IMG/VR virus record: IMGVR_UViG_3300042878_001826
Span: 1-64,000 of that record
Strand: one strand, 5' to 3'
DNA length: 64,000 bases
Source of the DNA: a virus
A program made the translations under genes and the position numbers. This document shows, piece by piece, positions 16,162 through 42,493 of this stretch (positions are counted from its first letter, which is position 1; the number at the start of each line of letters is the position of its first letter). The notes under the pieces are model-generated. The model saw nothing but the letters and a program-made list of their open reading frames with translations. It had not been told where the DNA came from and did not search any database.

Positions 16162-16361
16162 TGAATGATAGCCAACACCAAAAGAATCTTTATGAAAAGA
16201 TACTTCAATCGTCTGCGTACATAAACAAAGTCGCAAAAAGTGGTGCTGGCAATTATATCATTACCTCAAAGCAAGTCTCTGATATGATTTCTGAGATAAT
16301 GACGGAAAGAGTTGAGGCCAGAAAGAAAAAGATAATAAAGATACTATCATGGAACAAGTAG
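16161..16361 (+). CDS. Mini-protein: major-capsid-like fragment plus C-terminal tag
   Basis: KSGAGNYIITSKQVS resembles the gp23 RGxGNFIIxSxxV motif; ends RKKKIIKILS. Confidence 0.55.
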   Translation: MNDSQHQKNLYEKILQSSAYINKVAKSGAGNYIITSKQVSDMISEIMTERVEARKKKIIKILSWNK

Positions 16362-20869: not shown

Positions 20870-22366
20870 TCAAAGCGCTTTTTTTGTTGTTCCTATTTCT
20901 TTTCCTTCTTCCATCATCCTGACCGGAAATCCCCAAAGATATTCTACGTGAGGCAGTACCTTAGATATTGACCCTGAATCCAGTGATCGCTTGTTGACCT
21001 GAGTGTGTTCTAATGTAAGCGTTCTGTCTCCGTATACGTCTATGTCATAGACCTGTATGTCAGGAACGTATCTACTTCGGTTGTAAGATTCAGAAAGTGT
21101 TTGTCTAACTTTTTTATATCCGTATTCGTCATGTATTGCAGAAACTTCGTAGTGTGTCGCCTCTTCTTCGTCCGTAAGGCAGAAAAGCTTCATGTCTCTT
21201 ATCACCTTTGGAGATAGGTACTGAAGAACGAAAGTCTCGTCTTTGAAGTTCTCTACAATATATCTAAAAGTTTCTGACCAATTTCCTTTTCCTGCTATTT
21301 CTGGAAACCAATTTTTGTCTTCTTGTGTAGGATTCAAAGACATCCTCTTCAAATCTGTGAATATGTTGAATCCCAGTGTGTATGGATTTAGTCCTGAATA
21401 GTAGTTAGAATCAAAACCTGGTTGAAATATTACATTTGAGTGATGATGAAAGAACTCTAACATAAAGTCATCACCTAAATATCCTTCTTCATACATCTTA
21501 TTGATTATCTCATAATGTGTGAATGTGGCACAGCCTTCATTAGTGACTTTAGATTGTCCTTGTGGGTAGAAATATTGAGAAGTCTTTCTTACGATTCTAA
21601 CAAGCTCTCTTTGCCAACCTTTTAACTTAGGAGAGTTCTTTTCTATGAAATAAAGAATATTTTCTTCCGGTTGCTCAGGAAATCTTCTTTCTTTTGCAAT
21701 TTCTTGCTTTTCCTTAGGAAGAGTTCTCCAGATATCGTCTAAAAAGACCTGATCATCTTCTAATTTCTTTTTAAGTCTTTCTTTTTCTTCGCCTGGTGAT
21801 ATCTTTCTTGGCTTTTGATATTTATCTACACCATAGTTCATAAGAGCATGACAAGAATCCAATACCGCCTCTACTTCATCAAAACCATATTTCTCTTCAC
21901 ATTTAGTCACAAAGTTCTTTGCAAAGACCATATAGTCTATTATTGCATCTGCCTGAGTCCATTGTTTGAATAGATAGTTGTTTTTGAAAAAATGGTTGTG
22001 GCCGTATGCGGCATGTGCCAAAACAAGTACCATTAAACAAGTAGTATTGTCTTCCATGTTATATGATATACAAGGATTTGAATTTATAACAAGTTCATAA
22101 GCCAATCCCATTCTACCTTTTTTGTAGTTGTTCTGGTTCATAACAAAGTCTTTTCCAAACTTCCAGTGATTATATGAAATAGGAAGTCCAATAAGAGAAT
22201 AAGCATCTAACATCTGTTCGGATGATATTATCTCAAATTGATTTGGATAGGTTTCCAAACCAAGATACTCTTCTGCTATTCTAGAAACTACCTTATCTGC
22301 CTCTATTATTGTTTCTTCATCCCAATCTGATCGGGAAAAAAGTTTTTTTAAATCTGCTTTATCCAT
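20870..22366 (-). CDS. spoVR: SpoVR/YcgB family protein
   Basis: GLPISYNHWKFGK, LAYELVINSNPCI, AHAAYGHNHFFKNN, YFYPQ..NEGCATF. Confidence 0.93.
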   Translation of the reverse strand: MDKADLKKLFSRSDWDEETIIEADKVVSRIAEEYLGLETYPNQFEIISSEQMLDAYSLIGLPISYNHWKFGKDFVMNQNNYKKGRMGLAYELVINSNPCISYNMEDNTTCLMVLVLAHAAYGHNHFFKNNYLFKQWTQADAIIDYMVFAKNFVTKCEEKYGFDEVEAVLDSCHALMNYGVDKYQKPRKISPGEEKERLKKKLEDDQVFLDDIWRTLPKEKQEIAKERRFPEQPEENILYFIEKNSPKLKGWQRELVRIVRKTSQYFYPQGQSKVTNEGCATFTHYEIINKMYEEGYLGDDFMLEFFHHHSNVIFQPGFDSNYYSGLNPYTLGFNIFTDLKRMSLNPTQEDKNWFPEIAGKGNWSETFRYIVENFKDETFVLQYLSPKVIRDMKLFCLTDEEEATHYEVSAIHDEYGYKKVRQTLSESYNRSRYVPDIQVYDIDVYGDRTLTLEHTQVNKRSLDSGSISKVLPHVEYLWGFPVRMMEEGKEIGTTKKAL

Positions 22367-23628
22367 TATGCTGTCTTCTTTTTAAAGAAATCTTGAAAGA
22401 CTTTCCAGATTCCACCTACTTCATCAATTTTACCTATTTCAAAGTTATTTCTTTTATCAGCAATTGTTTTATAACTTTGCCATAAGTCACCTTCACTTCT
22501 TCTACATATCTCTATATAAATCATATATTGTACAGAGTTTAATATATCAGCATCCAATATTCTGGCACAATCTACCGCGTCCGATCTATCCCAAACATCA
22601 CCATCAGATGCTTGAGCAGCATATATGTTCCAATCTTTAGAATATCTTTCTTTTATGATTTTACTCATCAATTCCAATGCAGAAATAACAACCGTACCAC
22701 CACTTTCTCTAGAGTTGAAGAACTCTTCTTCATTTACCTCTTTTGCGACCGTAGTATGTCTTATGAAAACCATTTCAATCCTTTCATATTGTTTAGTCAA
22801 AAACATATAAAGTAACATGAAAAATCTTTTTGCTATGTCCTTTTCTTTTTCTCCCATCGATCCAGATACGTCCATAACACAGAACATCACAGCAGACGTT
22901 ACAGGAACTGCTACTTTTTCGAAGTTGTTGTATTGAAGGTCGACCTCTTCCATGAAAGATACTGAAAGCTTCATCTTCTTTAGCTTATCCAACTCTTTCT
23001 CTAACTCAGCAATCAAAACCAAATCAGTCTCGGTCTTCAACTTATCCTCTATCTCCTTTATCTTCTTGTCGAAAAACATACCTACAGCCATTCTTCTAGC
23101 CATAGAGTTTTTGTAGGATCTTGTTATATTTAACTTGCTTGGATTTCCGTAGTTGGAATATCCTGCTCTCTTTTGTTTAAAGTCTACTATTGAGTTTAGA
23201 TGTTTCTTAACCATGTCTGGTAGTTCTAAATCAGCGAAGAAGTAGTCTAAAAACTCTTCTCTACTTATCGTAACTGAAAATTCATCTTCTGTTGGGTCGC
23301 CATCTTTCGAACCTTTCTGACCTTTTCCCTTTCCTTGTCCACCTTTTGGCTTTTCAATAGTATCTCCTTGAGTGTATTCTTTATTTCCTGGATGAACATG
23401 CTTTTTATCACCACTATCTTTATCATAGTGAAATTGTGGTTCACCTATTCCTTTAACAGGAACTTTTATATTGCCGTTGGAAGAAGTAAGATCTTTTACA
23501 TTAGTATTTTTGACGATGTCTGGCAATGCTTTCTTAATCTGATCCTCTACTCTTTTAAGCAATCTCTGTCTGTTTTCTGAAGATTTCCCTTTAGAGTTCT
23601 TTCTTCGATCTACTATATTTATTGACAT
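22366..23628 (-). CDS. yeaH: YeaH/YhbH (DUF444) vWA-domain protein
   Basis: DRRKN.KGKSSENRQR, AVMFCVMDVSGSM, ESGGTV, AQASDGD. Confidence 0.92.
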   Translation of the reverse strand: MSINIVDRRKNSKGKSSENRQRLLKRVEDQIKKALPDIVKNTNVKDLTSSNGNIKVPVKGIGEPQFHYDKDSGDKKHVHPGNKEYTQGDTIEKPKGGQGKGKGQKGSKDGDPTEDEFSVTISREEFLDYFFADLELPDMVKKHLNSIVDFKQKRAGYSNYGNPSKLNITRSYKNSMARRMAVGMFFDKKIKEIEDKLKTETDLVLIAELEKELDKLKKMKLSVSFMEEVDLQYNNFEKVAVPVTSAVMFCVMDVSGSMGEKEKDIAKRFFMLLYMFLTKQYERIEMVFIRHTTVAKEVNEEEFFNSRESGGTVVISALELMSKIIKERYSKDWNIYAAQASDGDVWDRSDAVDCARILDADILNSVQYMIYIEICRRSEGDLWQSYKTIADKRNNFEIGKIDEVGGIWKVFQDFFKKKTA

Positions 23629-23724
23629 CTATCAGGTTTTTAATTTTTATCATACGAAGAAGGTGCTTGATGGAATCTAATTCGATTCCACCATAGCCCG
23701 GTCTTCTATATTTTTTTAACATCA

Positions 23725-25647
23725 TTATGAGCTTTTTCTAACTCTTAAATACCAGTCAGTTAATAGCTTAATTTGTTTGTTAGTGTATCCTCTTTCAACC
23801 ATTCTATCGATAAACTCAGAATGTTTTTTATCTTCTTCTTTAGATACTTTTCCAGTAAATGAGATTACAGGAATCAAATCTTCTGTTTTAGAGAATATTC
23901 TTTTTTCGATAACATTCTTGATTTTCTCATAAGAATCCCAAGATGGTGCTGATCCATTTTTAGCTTTGTGTCTTAAATAGAACTGAACTAAATCGTTTCT
24001 GAAATCTTTAGGATTCGCAATACCTGCAGGTTTTTCAATCTTTTCAAGTTCTTCATTCAAAGCTACTCTATCGAATTGTTGTCCTGTCTCTGGATCTCTA
24101 TAGTCGTTATCTTGACACCAATGGTCTGCATAAGTAATATATCTTTCGAATAAGTTTTGTCCATACTCTTGATAAGAATCAACATAAGCTTTTTGAATCT
24201 CATCTCCGATAAACTCTGCATATTTTCCGCTTAGTTTAGATTTCAATATGTTAAGATAGAAATCTTCAGTTTCTTTTGGCATTTGTGCTTTAACAATCTC
24301 ATTTTCAAGAACGTAGAATAAATGAACTGGATTAGCAGCAAGTTCTTCAGAATCGTGGTTGAATACTTTAGAAAGAACTTTAAATGCAAAACGAGTTGAT
24401 ATTCCATTCATTCCTTCAGTAACACCGGCATTATCTTTATATTCTTGTAATGATTTAGCTTTAGGATCAGACTCTTTTAAGTTCTCACCATCATAGATTC
24501 TCATCTTTGAATATAGATTAGAGTTTTCAGGAACTTTCAATCTTGTCATTACAGAGAATTGTGCCAATAAGTCTAAAGTCTTTGGTGCACAAGGTGCTTC
24601 AGATAAAGAAGAACCTTTAAGAAGTTTTTTATAGATTTCTACTTCTTCATTTACTCTCAAGCAATAAGGTACTCTTACGATGTAAACCCTGTCTAAGAAA
24701 GCTTCGTTCTTTTTATCATTTGAGAAAACATCCCATTCAGACTCATTAGAGTGTGCTAAGATAATACCTTGAAAAGGAATAGCTGGTAAGTTTTCTGTAC
24801 CATTGAAGTTTCCTTCTTGAGTTGCAGTTAATAAAGGGTGTAGGACTTTGATAGGTGCTTTAAACATCTCTACGAACTCCATCATACCTTGGTTTGCACG
24901 ACAAAGAGATCCTGAATAGTTATAAGCATCTGCATCATTCTGTGGAAACTCTGCCAACTTTCTTATATCTACTTTTCCTACTAATGCTGAAATGTCTTGA
25001 TTGTTTTCATCACCTGGTTCTGTCTTAGCAATACCGATTTGAGACGCGATAGACATCTTCATTTTTCTCACTTTGAACTTAGAGATATCACCTTCAAATT
25101 CGGCTAATCTTTTTGTTGCCCAAGGAGAAGCACATGAAGGAACGTATCTTTTTGCGATTCCATATTCATCCTCTAACTCTTTTCTGTAGTTTGCGAAAAG
25201 ACCAAGTGGACTTTCCCACACAGGAGATACTTCACCATCAGCAACAAGCACATACATAGTGCTTCTTTCCATAAGTTGCTTCAACCTTTCAGCCAAAGAT
25301 GACTTACCTCCACCTACTGGTCCTAAAAGGTATAGTATTTGTTTTTTTTCTTCTAATCCTTGTGCGGCATGTTTGAAGAAAGAAACAATTTGTTCGATAG
25401 TTTCTTCCATTCCAAAGAATTCGTTGAATGCAGGGTATCTTTTGATTACTTTGTTAGAGTAGATTCTGCTCAGCCTTTCGTCTAATTTAGTATCGACTAT
25501 TGCCGGTTCGCCGATGGCATCTAACATTCTTTCTGCTGGAGATGCGTATATTTTGTTATCCTCTTTGCAAAGATTGAGATACTCTTGTATCGTGATGTCC
25601 TTATCGGAATGTGCAAAGTCTTTCTTGATGATGTTCAACAAACTCAT
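23725..25647 (-). CDS. prkA: PrkA/YeaG AAA+ ATPase (Ser kinase family)
   Basis: LLGPVGGGKSS, EPGDENNQDIS, ANQGMMEFVEMFK, EAFLDR. Confidence 0.95.
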   Translation of the reverse strand: MSLLNIIKKDFAHSDKDITIQEYLNLCKEDNKIYASPAERMLDAIGEPAIVDTKLDERLSRIYSNKVIKRYPAFNEFFGMEETIEQIVSFFKHAAQGLEEKKQILYLLGPVGGGKSSLAERLKQLMERSTMYVLVADGEVSPVWESPLGLFANYRKELEDEYGIAKRYVPSCASPWATKRLAEFEGDISKFKVRKMKMSIASQIGIAKTEPGDENNQDISALVGKVDIRKLAEFPQNDADAYNYSGSLCRANQGMMEFVEMFKAPIKVLHPLLTATQEGNFNGTENLPAIPFQGIILAHSNESEWDVFSNDKKNEAFLDRVYIVRVPYCLRVNEEVEIYKKLLKGSSLSEAPCAPKTLDLLAQFSVMTRLKVPENSNLYSKMRIYDGENLKESDPKAKSLQEYKDNAGVTEGMNGISTRFAFKVLSKVFNHDSEELAANPVHLFYVLENEIVKAQMPKETEDFYLNILKSKLSGKYAEFIGDEIQKAYVDSYQEYGQNLFERYITYADHWCQDNDYRDPETGQQFDRVALNEELEKIEKPAGIANPKDFRNDLVQFYLRHKAKNGSAPSWDSYEKIKNVIEKRIFSKTEDLIPVISFTGKVSKEEDKKHSEFIDRMVERGYTNKQIKLLTDWYLRVRKSS

Positions 25648-30226: not shown

Positions 30227-32119
30227 TTATTTAACTTCTTCAAAATCTGTATCTTCTACTTCGCCATTACCACTAGGTTCTGTATTAGTACTTTCGTTTT
30301 GAGGTTCTTGAGAGCTTTCTTGATACAATCTAGTACTGATTGCATTCCAGCTTTCGTTTAACTTTTCAGAAGTTGCATCAATCCTAGCAACATCTTGCTC
30401 AGTATATGCAGCTCTTAAAGCATCTAAGTCTGTTTTTAATGTAGACTTATCTTCTTCTGTAAGTTTTTCGTCAAATTCTTTCATTTGTTTTTCAGTTTGG
30501 AAGATTTGAGTATCTGCTTGATTAAGTTTTTCAACTTTCTCTTTTTCAATCTTATCTGCTTCTGCGTTTAATTCAGCATCAGCTTTCATTTTCTCAATCT
30601 CTTCTTTTGTAAGTTGAGATCCACCTTCGATTCTAATCTTGTTTTCTTTACCAGTTGCTTTGTCTTTAGCAGACACAGACAAGATGCCATTTGCATCTAT
30701 ATCCAAAGTTACCTCAATCTGAGGAACTCCTCTTGGTGCTGACATGATTCCGTCAAGATTAAATCTACCTAAAGATCTATTATCTTTTGCCATTGCTCTC
30801 TCACCTTGAAGAACGTGAAGCTCTACAGATGGTTGGTTGTCAGAAGCAGTAGAGAAAGTCTCACTTTTTCTTGTTGGGATTGTACAGTTCGCCTCAATAA
30901 GTTTAGTGAATACACCACCCATTGTTTCGATTCCTAATGATAAAGGAGTTACATCTAATAAAAGAACGTCAGTGATTCCTCCTGTCAATACAGCACCTTG
31001 AATAGCCGCTCCTAAAGCAACAACTTCATCAGGGTTTACTGATTTGTTAGATTTCTTACCGATGAACTTCTCGATAGCTTCTTGTACTGCTGGGATTCTT
31101 GTAGAACCACCAACTAAGATTACTTCATCAATATCAGATGGTTTTAAGTCTGCATTTTTTAATGCACTCTTGGCACAAGCAATTGCTCTATCTACTAAAG
31201 AAGAAGTCATTTGGTCAAACTTAGACTTAGTCAATTTCTTAACAAAGTGTAAAGGCATACCATCTTTCGCAGTGATGTAAGGTAAGTTGATTTCAGATTC
31301 ACTAGTAGATGATAACTCAATCTTAGCTTTCTCAGCAGCATCTTTCAATCTTTGTAAAGCCATAGCATCTTTCGCTAAATCCATAGCGTGCTCAGATTTG
31401 AACTCGTCAAGCATCCAAGTGATGATTGCGTTGTCAAAGTCGTCTCCTCCTAAGTGAGTGTCACCGTCAGTAGATTTAACTTCGAATACACCATCACCAA
31501 TCTCTAATACAGATACGTCATGAGTTCCCCCGCCGCAGTCAAATACTAAGATTTTAGAGTCTGTGTTCTTTTTGTCTAAGCCATAAGCCAATGCCGCTGC
31601 AGTTGGTTCGTTGATGATTCTTTCTACTTTTAAACCAGCGATTTCTCCTGCTTCAATAGTAGCTGTTCTTTCTGCATCACCAAAGTATGCAGGAACTGTG
31701 ATAACCGCTCTTTTAACTTCATGACCTAAATAGTCTTCAGCAGTTTTCTTCATTTTTTGAAGAATCATTGCAGAAAGTTCTTGTGGAGTATAGTCTCTAC
31801 CATCGATATTCACTACAGGAACATTTCCAGTTTTTGATTTTTTCACTTCATAAGGAACTCTTTTAGTTTCATCAGAACAAGCTGAATAATCTTTTCCAAT
31901 GAATCTTTTGATAGAGTAGATTGTGTTTTTTGGATTCGTTACAGATTGTCTTTTCGCAGGATCTCCAATTTTTCTGTCGTTTTCTGTGAATGATACGATA
32001 GAAGGTGTTGTTCTTCTTCCTTCTGAGTTACTGATTACGACTGGTTCGCCGCCTTCAACGACTGCCACACATGAGTTAGTGGTTCCTAAGTCGATTCCAA
32101 TAATTACGTCTTTTGCCAT
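30227..32119 (-). CDS. dnaK: Chaperone DnaK (Hsp70)
   Basis: [47 protein letters not shown]. Confidence 0.98.
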
Positions 32120-38968: not shown

Positions 38969-39457
38969 ATGATAATAAAAATACATCCAGAGGATATTAT
39001 TAAAAGATGCTTATGGGACCATTATGTTTACTACATATTGGGTGGGTCTGACAAAGAAGCAGAAAAGATTCTGAAGGAAAACGTTGAAGTTGAGGTTTCT
39101 GAAAAGGACGCGTTAGTTATCGGACTTTTAAAAGTAATCGAAACAGACAACCTTATACACAAGTTCAACGGATACGTAATGGAACTACTTACTAACAAAT
39201 CTTTAAAAGAAAAGGAACTTCTATTGGTAAGAAAGAAAGCTTTAGATGCTGCATTAGACAAGTTTGTAGATAAGTTTCCAGACTATTGGGAGCCGAGCAC
39301 AGGATACAGAAATGGATTGATAGACTTAGTAGAGTATGTAGAGAAGATTAAAAAGGACGTCGAAAAGTTAGAAGTTCATAAAATCGTAGATAAAAACGTT
39401 ACTTATGAGTTTTACAACTCAAACAACGTAAGAAAATTATTAAAATTCAATTATTAA
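38969..39457 (+). CDS. Hypothetical protein
   Basis: First ORF of the grpE-dnaJ operon. Confidence 0.7.
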   Translation: MIIKIHPEDIIKRCLWDHYVYYILGGSDKEAEKILKENVEVEVSEKDALVIGLLKVIETDNLIHKFNGYVMELLTNKSLKEKELLLVRKKALDAALDKFVDKFPDYWEPSTGYRNGLIDLVEYVEKIKKDVEKLEVHKIVDKNVTYEFYNSNNVRKLLKFNY

Positions 39458-39460
39458 GAA

Positions 39461-40000
39461 ATGAAAAAGGATAAAGTACAAGAACTAAATACCAAAGAGA
39501 TGAAAATAGATAGTAATACTATTGGACTTGATTTAACTGGTGAGAATGCTGTTGAGTTTGTATTAGAAGACAATCCAAGAGCACACGTTTCTGTTTTAGA
39601 AGAACAGTTGAAAGAAGAAAAGAATAAATATCTTCTTCTTTATGCAGACTTTGAAAACTACAAAAGAAGAGTTCATAAAGAGAAAGAAGAGTTGAAAAAC
39701 AATACCAAAGTTTCTATGATTACTTCTATCTTGGATATGGACAACGATATCGAACTTGCAATCAAAAACATCAAAGATGATTCTGCGAGAGATGGTGTTA
39801 TGCTTATATCGTCAAAAGTTCAGAACTTTTTGAAGACTCATGGTATTGAACCAATACAAACTGAAACTTATGACGAAGATCTTCACGAAGTAATCTCTGT
39901 TTTAGAGATTGGTGAGAATAAGATTGTCGATGTTGTTAGTAAAGGTTATACTTTAAACGAAAAACCTTTCAGATTCCCTAAAATCGTATTAGGAAAGTAA
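39461..40000 (+). CDS. grpE: Nucleotide exchange factor GrpE
   Basis: LYADFENYKRR, D.DLHEVI, KGYTL..RFPKIV. Confidence 0.9.
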   Translation: MKKDKVQELNTKEMKIDSNTIGLDLTGENAVEFVLEDNPRAHVSVLEEQLKEEKNKYLLLYADFENYKRRVHKEKEELKNNTKVSMITSILDMDNDIELAIKNIKDDSARDGVMLISSKVQNFLKTHGIEPIQTETYDEDLHEVISVLEIGENKIVDVVSKGYTLNEKPFRFPKIVLGK

Positions 40001-40525
40001 ATGGTTCCAAGAAGTCAGGATAGGAAAAGCATACTTGATCTGAAGAAGGATCCCGACTTCAGAAGCATGCTTGTCGACACGCTTTGTCAAGGAATAAGAC
40101 TTACTTCTGATTTCAGAGATATAGTAGACTATGTAATCGATAATAAGCTACACCTTTTTGAAACTGATGACTTCTCAGGCTCTTTCTACCCTGAAGATGA
40201 CGATACACTTGATTTAGTATTTCCTGCAATCAGGAGAGTCTGGGGAAAGGTGTTCGTTGATCCTCCAAAAATACTTAAAGACAAGAAGCTGGAATTGTTC
40301 CAGCTTCTTTTCGATATTGATGACTTTGTTGATTATTTGATTGAAATAATGCCTAAGGTCAAAACTTCTTTGATAGAATTTGATAAGTTAGATAGAACCG
40401 CAGAAACTTTGGTTCTAATCGTCGATAACTATATTGCAGGAATCTTAGAGTCAACTCGTAATAGAGACGATATACAAATGGAAATAAGGGATTTAAGAAT
40501 AAGTAAAACTTTGAAGAAATGGTAA
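40001..40525 (+). CDS. Hypothetical protein with C-terminal tag
   Basis: LVFPAIRRVW motif; ends RDLRISKTLKKW. Confidence 0.65.
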   Translation: MVPRSQDRKSILDLKKDPDFRSMLVDTLCQGIRLTSDFRDIVDYVIDNKLHLFETDDFSGSFYPEDDDTLDLVFPAIRRVWGKVFVDPPKILKDKKLELFQLLFDIDDFVDYLIEIMPKVKTSLIEFDKLDRTAETLVLIVDNYIAGILESTRNRDDIQMEIRDLRISKTLKKW

Positions 40526-40863
40526 GTTGGTATATAAAATGTAAAGGGTTTAAGAGTCAACAATATTTGAAGAAAGTAGAAGAGACTGTCGAACCATTTA
40601 TGGAATACTTTATAGGTAGAATCTCAGATATTGAAGAATATGACATCGACAAGATAGAAGAACTTTACAAAGAGATATTCGACGAACTACCAGTTATGAG
40701 ACTTCGTACAAATAAGGACTATAACTATTCTCCACAATCAAAGGAAATAGAAATATGGTTAGAATACAACAAAGAAACTGATATCATCTTTGTCGACCCT
40801 AAGAAGTCGATAAGAAGAGAGATACAACTAAACAACTTATTTAAGAATGATGAAAAAATATGA
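40519..40863 (+). CDS. Hypothetical protein with C-terminal tag
   Basis: RREIQLNNLFK near end. Confidence 0.65.
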   Translation: MVSWYIKCKGFKSQQYLKKVEETVEPFMEYFIGRISDIEEYDIDKIEELYKEIFDELPVMRLRTNKDYNYSPQSKEIEIWLEYNKETDIIFVDPKKSIRREIQLNNLFKNDEKI

Positions 40864-41137
40864 TGACTTCAAAAAGGATAAAGAAGCTCTTTATCTTACG
40901 AAAGAAGAGATGACTACGGTCAAATGGACCAAATACGTTATCGTGGTACCCACAGAGGAAGACCGTAATGAACTTATGGAAGCATTTGAACACATTCACT
41001 ACTCTGACATAGATACAGACAACATAGCGGTCAACCAGCTTGCTCACGAGTATCTGGATGATGATAGAGAACCAGGAACCTACAACAATATAGTGGTAGA
41101 TCCGGCGGCCTATGAAAAACTAAGAGTAAAGAGATGA
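40847..41137 (+). CDS. Hypothetical protein
   Basis: Overlapping operon ORF. Confidence 0.6.
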   Translation: MMKKYDDFKKDKEALYLTKEEMTTVKWTKYVIVVPTEEDRNELMEAFEHIHYSDIDTDNIAVNQLAHEYLDDDREPGTYNNIVVDPAAYEKLRVKR

Positions 41138-41373
41138 TTAGTAGAACTTATACTATAGATGTTGGTAAAATGAAACCATCTAAAAAGAAATGGTGGCAAA
41201 TCTGGAGAAAGAATGGAGATTCTGCTGAAGAAATCTTGAAAGATTTAGTTTCAATCTATTCCGAAAATATCAATTTCAAATCTTTTGAGAGAAAGAACTC
41301 TATACACAGAATATATAATATTGAACCAATACCATTAGATTTTAAAAAAGATTATTGGTTCCCTAACAGATAA
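41134..41373 (+). CDS. Mini-protein resembling a portal (gp20) fragment
   Basis: [18 protein letters not shown]..and KDYWFP mirror gp20 YIDVGNM..KAE..EDYWL; internal RKNSIHRIY tag variant. Confidence 0.6.
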
Positions 41374-41389
41374 AAAAACAATACAATAT

Positions 41390-42460
41390 ATGAGCAAAGA
41401 CTACTACAGCGTTTTAGGAGTAGATAGAAACGCAACAGAAGAACAGATCAAAAAAGCTTATCGAAAGAAAGCGATGGAGTTCCATCCTGATAAAAATCCA
41501 GGAAACCCAGCGGCTGAAACAAAATTCAAAGAAGCTGCAGAAGCTTATGATGTACTTTCAGATGCTGGTAAAAAGTCTAACTACGACAACTTTGGTTCTG
41601 CAACAGGAAATCCTTTTGGTGGAGGTGGTGGAAACCCATTCGGTGGTGGAGGTCATGGATTCAATATGGATGACATCTTTTCACAATTTGGTGACATATT
41701 TGGAAACAGAGGTGGTGGAAAACAACAAAGAAGAAAAGCAAGAGGTTCTGATTTAAGAATCAAAGTTGTTTTGAATATTGATGAGATATTGAAAGGATGT
41801 ACTAAGAAACTTAGGTATAAAAGACATACTAAATGTGATCCTTGTGCTGGAAAAGGTGGTACTGACGTAAGAGAATGTTTGGCTTGTAAAGGAAGTGGAC
41901 ATAGAACGGTTGTTCAGAATACACCATTTGGACAAATGAGAACAGAAACAACTTGTCCTGATTGTAGAGGTACAGGAAGTATAATAAGAAATCAATGTAA
42001 TCATTGTCATGGAGAAGGAACTCAACTTAAAGAACAGGTTATTGATGTTGAAGTACCTGTAGGAGTATCAAACGGAATGCAACTTAATATGCAAGGGTAT
42101 GGTAATGATGTAAGAGATGGTGTTGCTGGCGACCTACATATATTAGTGGAAGAAGCACAAGACTTTTCATATAAGAGAGAAGGAAACAATTTGATAGTAG
42201 AAAAGACTATATCTGTTATAGATGCAATCTGTGGTGCACACGTCAAAGTATCTACTCCGCACGGAGAGCAATCTCTGTATATCGAACCAGGAACTGAACA
42301 TGGTAGAACTGCTAGAATAGGTGGTAAAGGTATTCCAGATATACATTATGGATTGGGAGATTTGTTTATAAAAATATCAATAAAGATTCCTAGAAACATA
42401 GATATGGACGAGCAACACATACTCGAAAAACTAAAAGATTCCAAAAACTTTCAAGTATAA
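41390..42460 (+). CDS. dnaJ: Chaperone DnaJ (class A)
   Basis: J domain HPD, G/F region, four CxxCxGxG repeats. Confidence 0.97.
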
Positions 42461-42493
42461 GAAAAGCCACTCATTTGAGTGGCTTTCTTTTTT
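42459..42493. terminator. Bidirectional intrinsic terminator
   Basis: aaagccactc-attt-gagtggcttt between convergent genes. Confidence 0.85.

What the first reader, a model, noticed from the sequence alone, without database searches (positions are those of the whole stretch)
41134..41373. Portal-fragment mini-protein inside the grpE-dnaJ operon
Seen: a 79-aa ORF with [28 protein letters not shown] and terminal KDYWFP. The order matches T4-type portal motifs (YxDxGNMPxxKAxxxxxxxMxxxKNxxxYD ... EDYWL) recalled from gp20, and a tag variant ([10 protein letters not shown]) sits between the two blocks. This is a second, independent portal-like fragment 25 kb from the first, suggesting a repeated strategy rather than one decayed gene.
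Basis: partly seen in the sequence, partly recalled or inferred. Interest (0 to 1): 0.8.

Follow-up and report, generated by a model that had tools for sequence, protein, structure and literature searches.

The report
Stand-alone portal clip-domain mini-protein
A large uncultured phage keeps, between its own grpE and dnaJ chaperone genes, a conserved 79-residue protein that is a free-standing, modified copy of the "clip" of the T4-type portal, the part that docks the DNA-packaging motor and later the neck; no natural protein of this kind turned up in my literature searches, and its function is untested.

Summary
The ORF at 41134-41373 (+) is real and the quoted motifs are there. It is a conserved gene. 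It has 27 homologues at 65-90% identity. Syntenic copies (43-68% identity) sit in the same grpE...dnaJ block on five other distinct contigs. dN/dS is 0.19-0.33.

A family profile matches the portal of the 642-kb phage LR756502 at residues 269-333 (hhalign 95.5%, E 1.6e-8) and T4 gp20 at 281-339. One hundred shuffled portals never scored above 18.1, against 56.3 and 29.7. LR756502 carries a full portal and also a mini-protein that is 42% identical to that portal's own clip (E 5e-16).

The aligned segment is the clip domain (T4 279-358), which docks terminase gp17 and neck gp13. A synthetic T4 clip peptide (288-311) binds gp17 and blocks packaging.

The mini-protein differs from a portal in three ways:
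- It has no wing, stem or crown.
- It has a 13-residue Lys/Trp-rich insertion at the terminase-contacting tip.
- In this clade the clip hairpin is replaced by the phage's common peptide tag.

The most likely function is a soluble mimic of the portal docking site; this is inferred, not shown. The scan had already noted other head-protein fragments in this same genome, but none on other DNA.

The parts
41134..41373 (+). 79-aa mini-protein gene (stop included), a stand-alone homologue of the portal clip domain
41146..41172 (+). Residues 5-13 (TYTIDVGKM): first clip strand and tip, aligned with T4 gp20 W285-M292. The family consensus is IPVGN(M/L).
   Evidence: alignment; motif counts; T4 tip residues from PMC4493910
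41179..41217 (+). Residues 16-28 ([13 protein letters not shown]): Lys/Trp-rich insertion at the clip tip. It is absent from all 120 portals examined and is the most conserved part of the family (W20, W21, W24 and K26 invariant).
41224..41262 (+). Residues 31-43 ([13 protein letters not shown]): equivalent of clip helix alpha6 (T4 A297-K309). AlphaFold predicts a helix here.
41287..41316 (+). Residues 52-61 ([10 protein letters not shown]): internal copy of the phage's common peptide tag. It occupies the place of the clip beta-hairpin (TGE-I-x-I in portals and in distant family members).
41350..41370 (+). Residues 73-79 (DYWFPNR): aligned with T4 gp20 D333-R339, the strand that leads into the inner clip loop. 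Y74, W75, F76, N78 and R79 are invariant in close homologues.
38969..42460 (+). Seven-gene co-directional block: 162-aa ORF, grpE, 174-aa tagged ORF, 114-aa tagged ORF, 96-aa ORF, mini-protein, dnaJ. The ORFs abut or overlap. The block is conserved on five other distinct contigs.
42463..42486 (.). Bidirectional intrinsic-terminator-like hairpin (10-11 bp stem, T-runs on both strands) just after dnaJ. No such site lies inside the block on the + strand.
30227..32119 (-). Phage dnaK (Hsp70, 816 bits), partner of the grpE and dnaJ genes that flank the mini-protein

Best explanation
Shown: the gene encodes a conserved, free-standing, diverged copy of the clip domain of a T4-type portal protein. The pieces run in the same order as T4 gp20 ~283-339: first strand, GN(M/L) tip, helix alpha6 and the (D/E)YW(F/L)P strand. 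It lacks the wing, stem and crown that build the portal ring and channel. Two family-specific changes are also shown. One is a 13-residue Lys/Trp-rich insertion at the tip that in T4 touches the terminase. The other, in this clade, is replacement of the clip hairpin by the peptide tag that about 12% of this phage's proteins carry. Inferred: it works as a soluble mimic of the portal's docking site. It would occupy a protein that normally binds the clip, most likely the large terminase and otherwise the gp13-type neck protein. That would hold back or redirect DNA packaging or head completion, either of the phage itself (timing) or of a co-infecting T4-type phage. The tag would couple it to whatever reads the tag on the other small proteins. 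The extra positive charge and tryptophans at the tip would strengthen an interface that in T4 is mainly electrostatic.
For: Homology to the clip:
- The LR756502 mini-protein matches its own portal at 277-335 by BLASTP, E 5e-16, 42% identity.
- A profile built without that sequence (A3) matches the portal at 269-333 with 95.5% probability, E 1.6e-8, and T4 gp20 at 281-339, E 5e-4.
- Shuffled portals reach at most 18.1, against 56.3 and 29.7. The multiple alignment is colinear.

Function of the clip, from PMC4493910 and PMC9958956:
- The clip is residues 279-358, exposed outside the capsid, and binds gp17 and then gp13.
- The tip residues are N291, M292, R295 and K296.
- A 24-residue peptide (288-311) binds gp17 and inhibits packaging.

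A real, selected gene:
- 27 homologues with 31 invariant positions.
- dN/dS of 0.33 and 0.19.
- Single copy, in a conserved position.

The insertion is absent from 120 portals and present in nearly all family members.
Against: - No binding partner was shown or modelled.
- AlphaFold models are of low confidence (pLDDT 48 and 58), so the fold is inferred from sequence only.
- No T4-type portal, MCP or terminase was found in this 150-kb record or in the 344-kb relative. The partner in this phage is therefore unseen. The records are incomplete, and the terminase search also failed on LR756502, so that search was insensitive.
- The insertion sits exactly at the presumed terminase contact and could abolish that contact rather than strengthen it.
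- One lineage (L031/L032) carries a TCA-to-TAA nonsense codon at position 40, so the full-length protein may be dispensable.
- The conserved position next to dnaJ is not explained by this model.
Confidence: 0.4

Rival explanations
1. Portal-assembly helper tied to the phage Hsp70 system. The clip copy binds nascent portal protomers through the clip's lateral strand contacts, or presents a clip-like surface at the membrane through the Lys/Trp-rich segment. It would then nucleate, cap or anchor the portal initiator together with phage DnaK/DnaJ/GrpE. This would be functionally analogous to T4 gp40.
For: - The gene is translationally coupled into the grpE...dnaJ block and keeps that place directly upstream of dnaJ on five other distinct contigs at 43-68% identity.
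- In T4 the portal initiator assembles on the inner membrane, needs gp40 and cross-links to DnaK.
- In T4 the clip becomes accessible only after release from the membrane (PMC9958956).
- Trp/Lys-rich segments are typical of interfacial membrane binding (my own knowledge).
Against: - More distant family members (LR756502, L034, L039) are not next to chaperone genes.
- The hydrophobic moment of the insertion is not unusual: 1223 of 2000 shuffles reach it.
- Tagged mini-genes occur in arrays all over the genome, so their presence in this operon may be incidental.
Confidence: 0.22
2. Counter-defence decoy. The conserved clip epitope binds host pattern-recognition sensors that detect portal folds (Avs4 or Avs11 type) without activating them, or delivers them to a tag reader.
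For: - Avs families sense portal, MCP and most of the core phage proteome by direct fold recognition (PMC13581612; bioRxiv 10.1101/2025.11.14.688446).
- This phage and its relatives hold small ORFs that copy fragments of several such proteins.
Against: - Avs sensors use extended interfaces over whole folds, and a 60-residue piece covers little of a portal.
- A true mimic could trigger rather than block the sensor.
- No defence gene or host is known for this phage.
- No paper I found describes such decoys.
Confidence: 0.12
3. Tag-directed cargo or structural accessory. The tag decides the protein's fate (for example loading into the head or onto another assembly), and the clip-derived body is only a small scaffold, or an extra subunit that decorates the real portal-neck junction.
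For: - The tag is shared by 24 of 199 crude gene calls with unrelated bodies.
- Some family members carry the tag at the C-terminus after YWFP (P0028, P0039, P0042).
Against: - The most conserved positions are in the clip-derived parts and the insertion, not only in the tag.
- In L003/L038 the tag region is poorly conserved while the body is kept.
Confidence: 0.12
4. Non-functional remnant of a portal gene, or a chance motif resemblance.
For: - Pfam and PHROGs give no hit for the single sequence.
- One lineage has a nonsense codon.
Against: - Homologues are conserved and have their own start and stop codons.
- The family has its own conserved insertion, and dN/dS is below 1.
- It coexists with an intact portal in LR756502.
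- Profile scores are far above the shuffled controls.
Confidence: 0.03

Closest known systems
Clip domain of T4-type portal proteins (gp20, Pfam PF07230; PDB 3JA7)
   Same: The sequence elements run in the same order as T4 gp20 ~283-339 and LR756502 portal 269-333: first strand, GN(M/L)-type tip, helix alpha6 and the (D/E)YW(F/L)P strand.
   Different: - It has only 79 residues, with no wing, stem, crown or tunnel loop, so it cannot form a channel.
- It has a 13-residue Lys/Trp-rich insertion at the tip that none of 120 portals has.
- Its hairpin is replaced by a tag-like helix.
- It gives no Pfam hit at E <= 1, so it is below the family's threshold.
Synthetic T4 gp20 peptide 288-311, which binds gp17 and inhibits DNA packaging (cited in PMC4493910)
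   Same: It covers the same stretch of the clip (tip plus helix alpha6) as residues 9-45 of the mini-protein. It shows that an isolated clip piece can bind terminase and block packaging.
   Different: It is a laboratory peptide, not a gene. It has no insertion, no tag and no YWFP strand. Nothing has been tested for the natural protein.
MicroProteins (miPs) of eukaryotes, such as Id and LITTLE ZIPPER proteins (my own knowledge)
   Same: They are small proteins that copy only the interaction domain of a larger multi-domain protein, so they can titrate its partners.
   Different: They act on transcription-factor dimers. Here the parent is a virion assembly and packaging protein, the organism is a phage, and dominant-negative action is only inferred.
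T4 gp40, the portal (head vertex) assembly chaperone (PMC9958956)
   Same: It is a small phage protein that could act on portal initiation at the membrane with DnaK involvement, and the mini-protein's genomic link to Hsp70 co-chaperones fits that setting.
   Different: No sequence relation was tested or is claimed. gp40 is not a portal fragment.

Membership tests
T4-type portal protein (Pfam PF07230 Portal_T4) | Scores above the Pfam gathering threshold (22.9 bits) | tested here: not met
   No Portal_T4 hit at E <= 1 for the 79-aa protein. The whole 150-kb record has no match.
T4-type portal protein (Pfam PF07230 Portal_T4) | Full architecture of wing, stem, clip and crown (~500+ aa) able to form the dodecameric channel | tested here: not met
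   The protein has 79 aa. The alignment covers only T4 281-339 and LR756502 portal 269-333. All 18 profile hits among 1.84 billion representatives are 115 aa or shorter.
T4-type portal protein (Pfam PF07230 Portal_T4) | Homology to the clip-domain segment | tested here: met
   hhalign gives 95.5% probability, E 1.6e-8. BLASTP of the LR756502 mini-protein against its own portal gives E 5e-16. A shuffle control supports both.
Tagged small proteins of this phage clade (C-terminal R-x-x-[KR]-[LI]-x-x-[LI]-x helix) | Carries the tag motif | tested here: met
   RKNSIHRIY at residues 53-61 fits the loose motif and is one of only 9 internal matches in the proteome. A near-identical variant, KRKNSIDKLY, sits in the 59-aa MCP-fragment ORF just beyond the window (G000 64010-64189, - strand).
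Tagged small proteins of this phage clade (C-terminal R-x-x-[KR]-[LI]-x-x-[LI]-x helix) | Tag lies within about 8 residues of the C-terminus | tested here: not met
   The tag ends 18 residues before the C-terminus and is followed by the DYWFPNR strand. Relatives P0028, P0039, P0042 and P0036 do have it at the C-terminus.
MicroProtein-type competitive mimic | Small protein derived from, and retaining only, an interaction domain of a larger protein | tested here: met
   It is a clip-only homologue, and it coexists with the intact portal in LR756502.
MicroProtein-type competitive mimic | Binds the parent protein's partner and interferes with it | not testable with these tools
   No complex prediction or assay was available. 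The only precedent is the T4 peptide 288-311.
Anti-Avs decoy | Binds or blocks a portal-sensing STAND receptor | not testable with these tools
   Only literature context is available.

The most novel reading that the evidence does not exclude
Huge phages of this clade run a modular 'bait plus handle' system. Short copies of the most conserved interaction surfaces of head proteins (portal clip, MCP pieces and possibly the prohead protease) are joined to one common peptide tag. The portal-clip member would be a natural terminase- or neck-docking-site mimic with a reinforced tip. It would be used to time the phage's own packaging, to sabotage co-infecting T4-type phages, or to blind host sensors of portal folds. 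The tag would link all baits to one reader, possibly the phage's own Hsp70 machinery.
Probability: 0.25. Interest if true: 0.85.

Novelty: new variant of a known kind. Interest (0 to 1): 0.66.

Why it matters
The portal clip is the hub where the packaging motor and later the neck dock. A synthetic clip peptide is known to block T4 packaging. A natural, conserved, free-standing clip copy would be the first phage-encoded protein of that type. It would give a direct handle on how very large phages control, or attack, the portal-terminase step. It also ties the unexplained tag and the other head-protein fragments of these phages to a concrete, testable interface. Finally, it raises the question of why the gene is kept inside a phage Hsp70 co-chaperone operon.

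Tried and rejected
Searches that gave nothing usable:
- Pfam and PHROGs on the single protein: nothing at E <= 0.1.
- PDB sequence search with profiles A1 and A2: no portal hit.
- AlphaFold2 with A1 and with A3: pLDDT 48 and 58, too low for a fold search, so none was run.
- ESM Atlas: no usable hit.
- tblastn against phage records: only LR756502 at E 0.1.

Attempts to find the phage's own head genes:
- I looked for a full portal or MCP in the 150-kb record and in the 344-kb relative with PF07230, PF07068, the LR756502 portal and phmmer --max over all frames.
- Only small-ORF fragments were found.
- PF17289 for the terminase found nothing even in LR756502, so that result is uninformative.

Other checks:
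- The hydrophobic moment of the insertion is not significant.
- The other four small ORFs of the block have no similarity to T4 or LR756502 head-gene regions.

Readings rejected:
- Exon of a split portal gene. The ORF has its own start and stop, the family consists of small proteins, and LR756502 has an intact portal as well.
- Decayed remnant, rejected on conservation.
- Second copy in the genome: none found.

Full report
**Setting.** The window is the first 64 kb of a 150-kb IMG/VR virus record. It is classed as linear, has about 33% G+C, and CheckV estimates it to be 61% complete. It encodes:
- its own DnaK (30227-32119, - strand, 816 bits), GrpE (39461-40000) and DnaJ (41390-42460);
- a PrkA/DUF444/SpoVR set, a type II topoisomerase subunit, an RNA ligase and a GAF/PAS histidine kinase.

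It is therefore a large phage of the 'huge phage' kind.

**Observation.**
- Its ATG overlaps the stop of the preceding 96-aa ORF (ATGA), and dnaJ begins 17 nt after its stop.
- The seven + strand ORFs from 38969 to 42460 abut or overlap.
- A strong terminator-like hairpin follows dnaJ at 42463-42486, and none lies inside the block on the + strand.

**It is a real gene.**
- A word-indexed search found 27 proteins of 74-87 aa at 65-90% identity. Thirty-one positions are invariant, including W20, W21, W24, the block R53-I66 and Y74-W75-F76.
- A full HMMER scan of 1.84 billion representatives found 18 relatives. All are 115 aa or shorter and none is of portal length.
- Related loci show the same block: 162-aa ORF, grpE, tagged ORF of 174-181 aa, tagged ORF of 109-114 aa, ORF of 96-112 aa, mini-protein, dnaJ.
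- That block occurs on five other distinct contigs: L003/L033, L031 (L032 is an identical copy from a second sample), L036, L037 and L038. The mini-protein is 43-68% identical there.
- L036 has an HNH-type gene inserted before dnaJ.
- dN/dS is 0.33 (window versus L036) and 0.19 (L038 versus L003).
- The gene is single-copy in this record and in the 344-kb relative.
- In L031/L032 the gene starts with GTG and carries a one-base TCA-to-TAA nonsense change at codon 40. The pairwise dN/dS against L037 is 0.57. So one lineage may be losing or shortening it.

**Homology to the portal clip.**
- Single-sequence Pfam and PHROGs scans are blank.
- Distant family members expose a core that looks like a portal. 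These include P0036 and the second repeat of P0040, which lack the Trp-rich segment.
- The 642-kb phage LR756502 contains a genuine T4-type portal (PF07230, 196 bits; L004:1213-2925) and also a 153-aa member of the mini-protein family (L002:5761-6219).
- BLASTP of that mini-protein against the portal of the same genome gives E 5e-16 and 42% identity over portal residues 277-335. There is one 12-residue gap where the Trp-rich segment sits.
- To avoid circularity I built a profile without the LR756502 mini-protein (A3, 20 sequences). It matches the portal at 269-333 with 95.5% probability and E 1.6e-8. It matches T4 gp20 at 281-339 with E 5.4e-4.
- One hundred shuffles of the portal gave best scores of 12.8 +/- 2.2 (maximum 18.1), against 56.3 and 29.7. 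The reversed portal scored 11.6.
- The narrow profile A1 alone also finds the same segment, at E 6.8e-4.
- A MAFFT alignment of T4 gp20, four megaphage portals and ten family members is colinear from the first strand to the (D/E)YW(F/L)P motif.

**What the segment is.**
- In the T4 portal structure the clip domain is residues 279-358 (three strands and helix alpha6).
- It is exposed outside the capsid. It is the attachment site first for the packaging ATPase gp17 and then for neck protein gp13.
- Tip residues N291, M292, R295 and K296 face gp17, and mutating them abolishes packaging.
- A 24-residue peptide, 288-311, binds gp17 and inhibits packaging (PMC4493910; PMC9958956).
- The mini-protein corresponds to about 283-339. 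That is strand one, the tip, alpha6, the hairpin region and the strand ending at the inner clip loop (R338/R339 align with N78/R79).

**How it differs from a portal.**
1. It has nothing beyond the clip.
2. A segment with the consensus KKKWWQ(F/I)WRK is inserted at the tip, after the GN(M/L)-x-x-K-K positions. None of the 120 portals retrieved has it. In those portals this region is 87-100% identical and reads IKG(L/M)(S/P)RQRAE. Nearly all family members do have the insertion. The GN(M/L)P-x-KK tip of many family members is closer to T4's GNMPARK than to the clade's own portals. Loop alignment is uncertain, so I take this only as a lead.
3. Distant members keep the portal-like hairpin (D-x-x-T-G-E-I/L-x-I). 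The window's clade has [10 protein letters not shown] there instead.

**The tag.**
- With a crude gene call of 199 genes, the loose motif R-x-x-[KRQNS]-[LIM]-x-x-[LIMF]-[LGFYIW] lies within 8 residues of the C-terminus in 24 proteins. That is a 66-fold per-position enrichment.
- The motif occurs internally only 9 times, and the mini-protein is one of those 9.
- A near-identical variant, K-R-K-N-S-I-D-K-L-Y, ends the 59-aa ORF at 64010-64189 (- strand) of the genome. That ORF matches Pfam Gp23 positions 162-196.
- Family members P0028, P0039 and P0042 carry the tag after YWFP, and P0036 ends with it.
- So the 'tag variant' reading holds, although here the tag is internal.

**A repeated strategy.**
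- Small ORFs that match pieces of head proteins occur in this record: Gp23 positions 219-261 at 16173-16301, and 162-196 at 64085-64189.
- They occur in the 344-kb relative: Gp23 219-254, and Portal_T4 285-310 in a tagged 55-aa ORF.
- They occur in LR756502, where a 165-aa ORF about 580 nt upstream of the clip mini-protein matches the first ~130 residues of that phage's own MCP at E 1e-14.
- Earlier notes of this scan on the same genome had flagged these fragments and the tag. I used them as leads and re-tested the tag myself.

**Where is the real portal?** Neither the 150-kb record nor the 344-kb relative (CheckV 91%) shows a full T4-type portal or MCP by any search I could run. In LR756502 the two genes lie about 4 kb apart. 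The simplest reading is that the head module lies in the unassembled parts, but this is not shown.

**Mechanism.** What is shown is identity: a conserved, free-standing, modified clip domain. The rest is inferred.
- A clip without a ring cannot conduct DNA. What it can retain is binding, so the partner should be something that binds the clip: the large terminase, the neck protein, or neighbouring portal protomers.
- The T4 peptide experiment shows that an isolated clip piece binds terminase and blocks packaging. I therefore rank 'soluble docking-site mimic' first (0.40).
- The conserved place beside dnaJ, the reported cross-linking of T4 gp20 to DnaK, and the membrane-facing position of the clip during prohead initiation support a portal-assembly helper linked to the phage Hsp70 system (0.22). 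However, distant members are not near chaperone genes, and the amphipathicity of the insertion is unremarkable.
- A decoy for portal-sensing Avs receptors and a tag-directed cargo are possible (0.12 each).
- A dead remnant or chance resemblance is contradicted by the data (0.03).

**Novelty.**
- Searches for clip-domain mimics, portal decoys and chaperone-linked portal genes in huge phages found no description of a natural stand-alone clip protein.
- It is not a member of the portal family, because the threshold and architecture tests are not met. It is a domain-only derivative of that family, comparable in logic to eukaryotic microProteins.
- I class it as a new variant of a known kind, with an untested and possibly more novel function.

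**Limits.** The host is unknown, and the phage's own portal and terminase were not seen.

Noticed in passing
L031:3986-4225 and L032 (same sequence): In one lineage, seen identically on two IMG/VR contigs, the mini-protein gene starts with GTG and has a single-base TCA-to-TAA nonsense change at codon 40. This would leave only the strand, insertion and helix half. The rest of the frame is still 89% identical to L037.
   Followed up: partly
L034:3612-4540 (also L035, L041, L042): Here the clip-like module (strand, WWQFW segment, helix, then directly E-I-W-L-P) forms the first ~45 residues of a 181-aa protein whose remainder has no family match. It starts at the stop (ATGA) of a 127-aa ORF that is only the N-terminal domain of a ribose-phosphate pyrophosphokinase (PF13793). 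This may be a split or interrupted prs gene.
   Followed up: partly
L002:4685-5182 (LR756502): A 165-aa ORF about 580 nt upstream of the LR756502 clip mini-protein is homologous to the first ~130 residues of that phage's own major capsid protein (E 1e-14). This is another stand-alone head-protein piece beside an intact parent gene.
   Followed up: partly
L005:1483-1650 (344-kb relative, G001 131810-131977): A 55-aa ORF matches Pfam Portal_T4 positions 285-310 (E 0.002), the region just after the clip, and ends in a clear tag (K-R-K-R-I-S-R-I-K-S-L). This is a second kind of portal-piece mini-protein.
   Followed up: partly
G000 64010-64189 (-), just beyond the window's end: A 59-aa ORF matches Pfam Gp23 positions 162-196 and carries K-R-K-N-S-I-D-K-L-Y followed by 9 more residues. 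This is the same unusual tag variant and sub-terminal position as in the clip mini-protein.
   Followed up: no
window 40001-40863: Two of the other three small genes between grpE and dnaJ carry the tag. The 174-aa ORF carries I-R-D-L-R-I-S-K-T-L near its end, and the 114-aa ORF carries R-R-E-I-Q-L-N-N-L-F near its end. Both are conserved with the block in all relatives but have no family match.
   Followed up: partly
L036:4281-4961: A 226-aa HNH-type endonuclease gene is inserted between the mini-protein and dnaJ in one relative only. It looks like a mobile homing-endonuclease insertion.
   Followed up: no
portal proteins P0045-P0164: The clip-stem region (residues 230-400) of the megaphage portal is 87-100% identical among the best 120 of 1086 hits, from contigs of up to 770 kb. 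That is far more conserved than the mini-protein family.
   Followed up: no
window 20870-25647 (-): The phage carries a complete PrkA / DUF444 / SpoVR (YeaG-YeaH-YcgB-like) gene trio.
   Followed up: no
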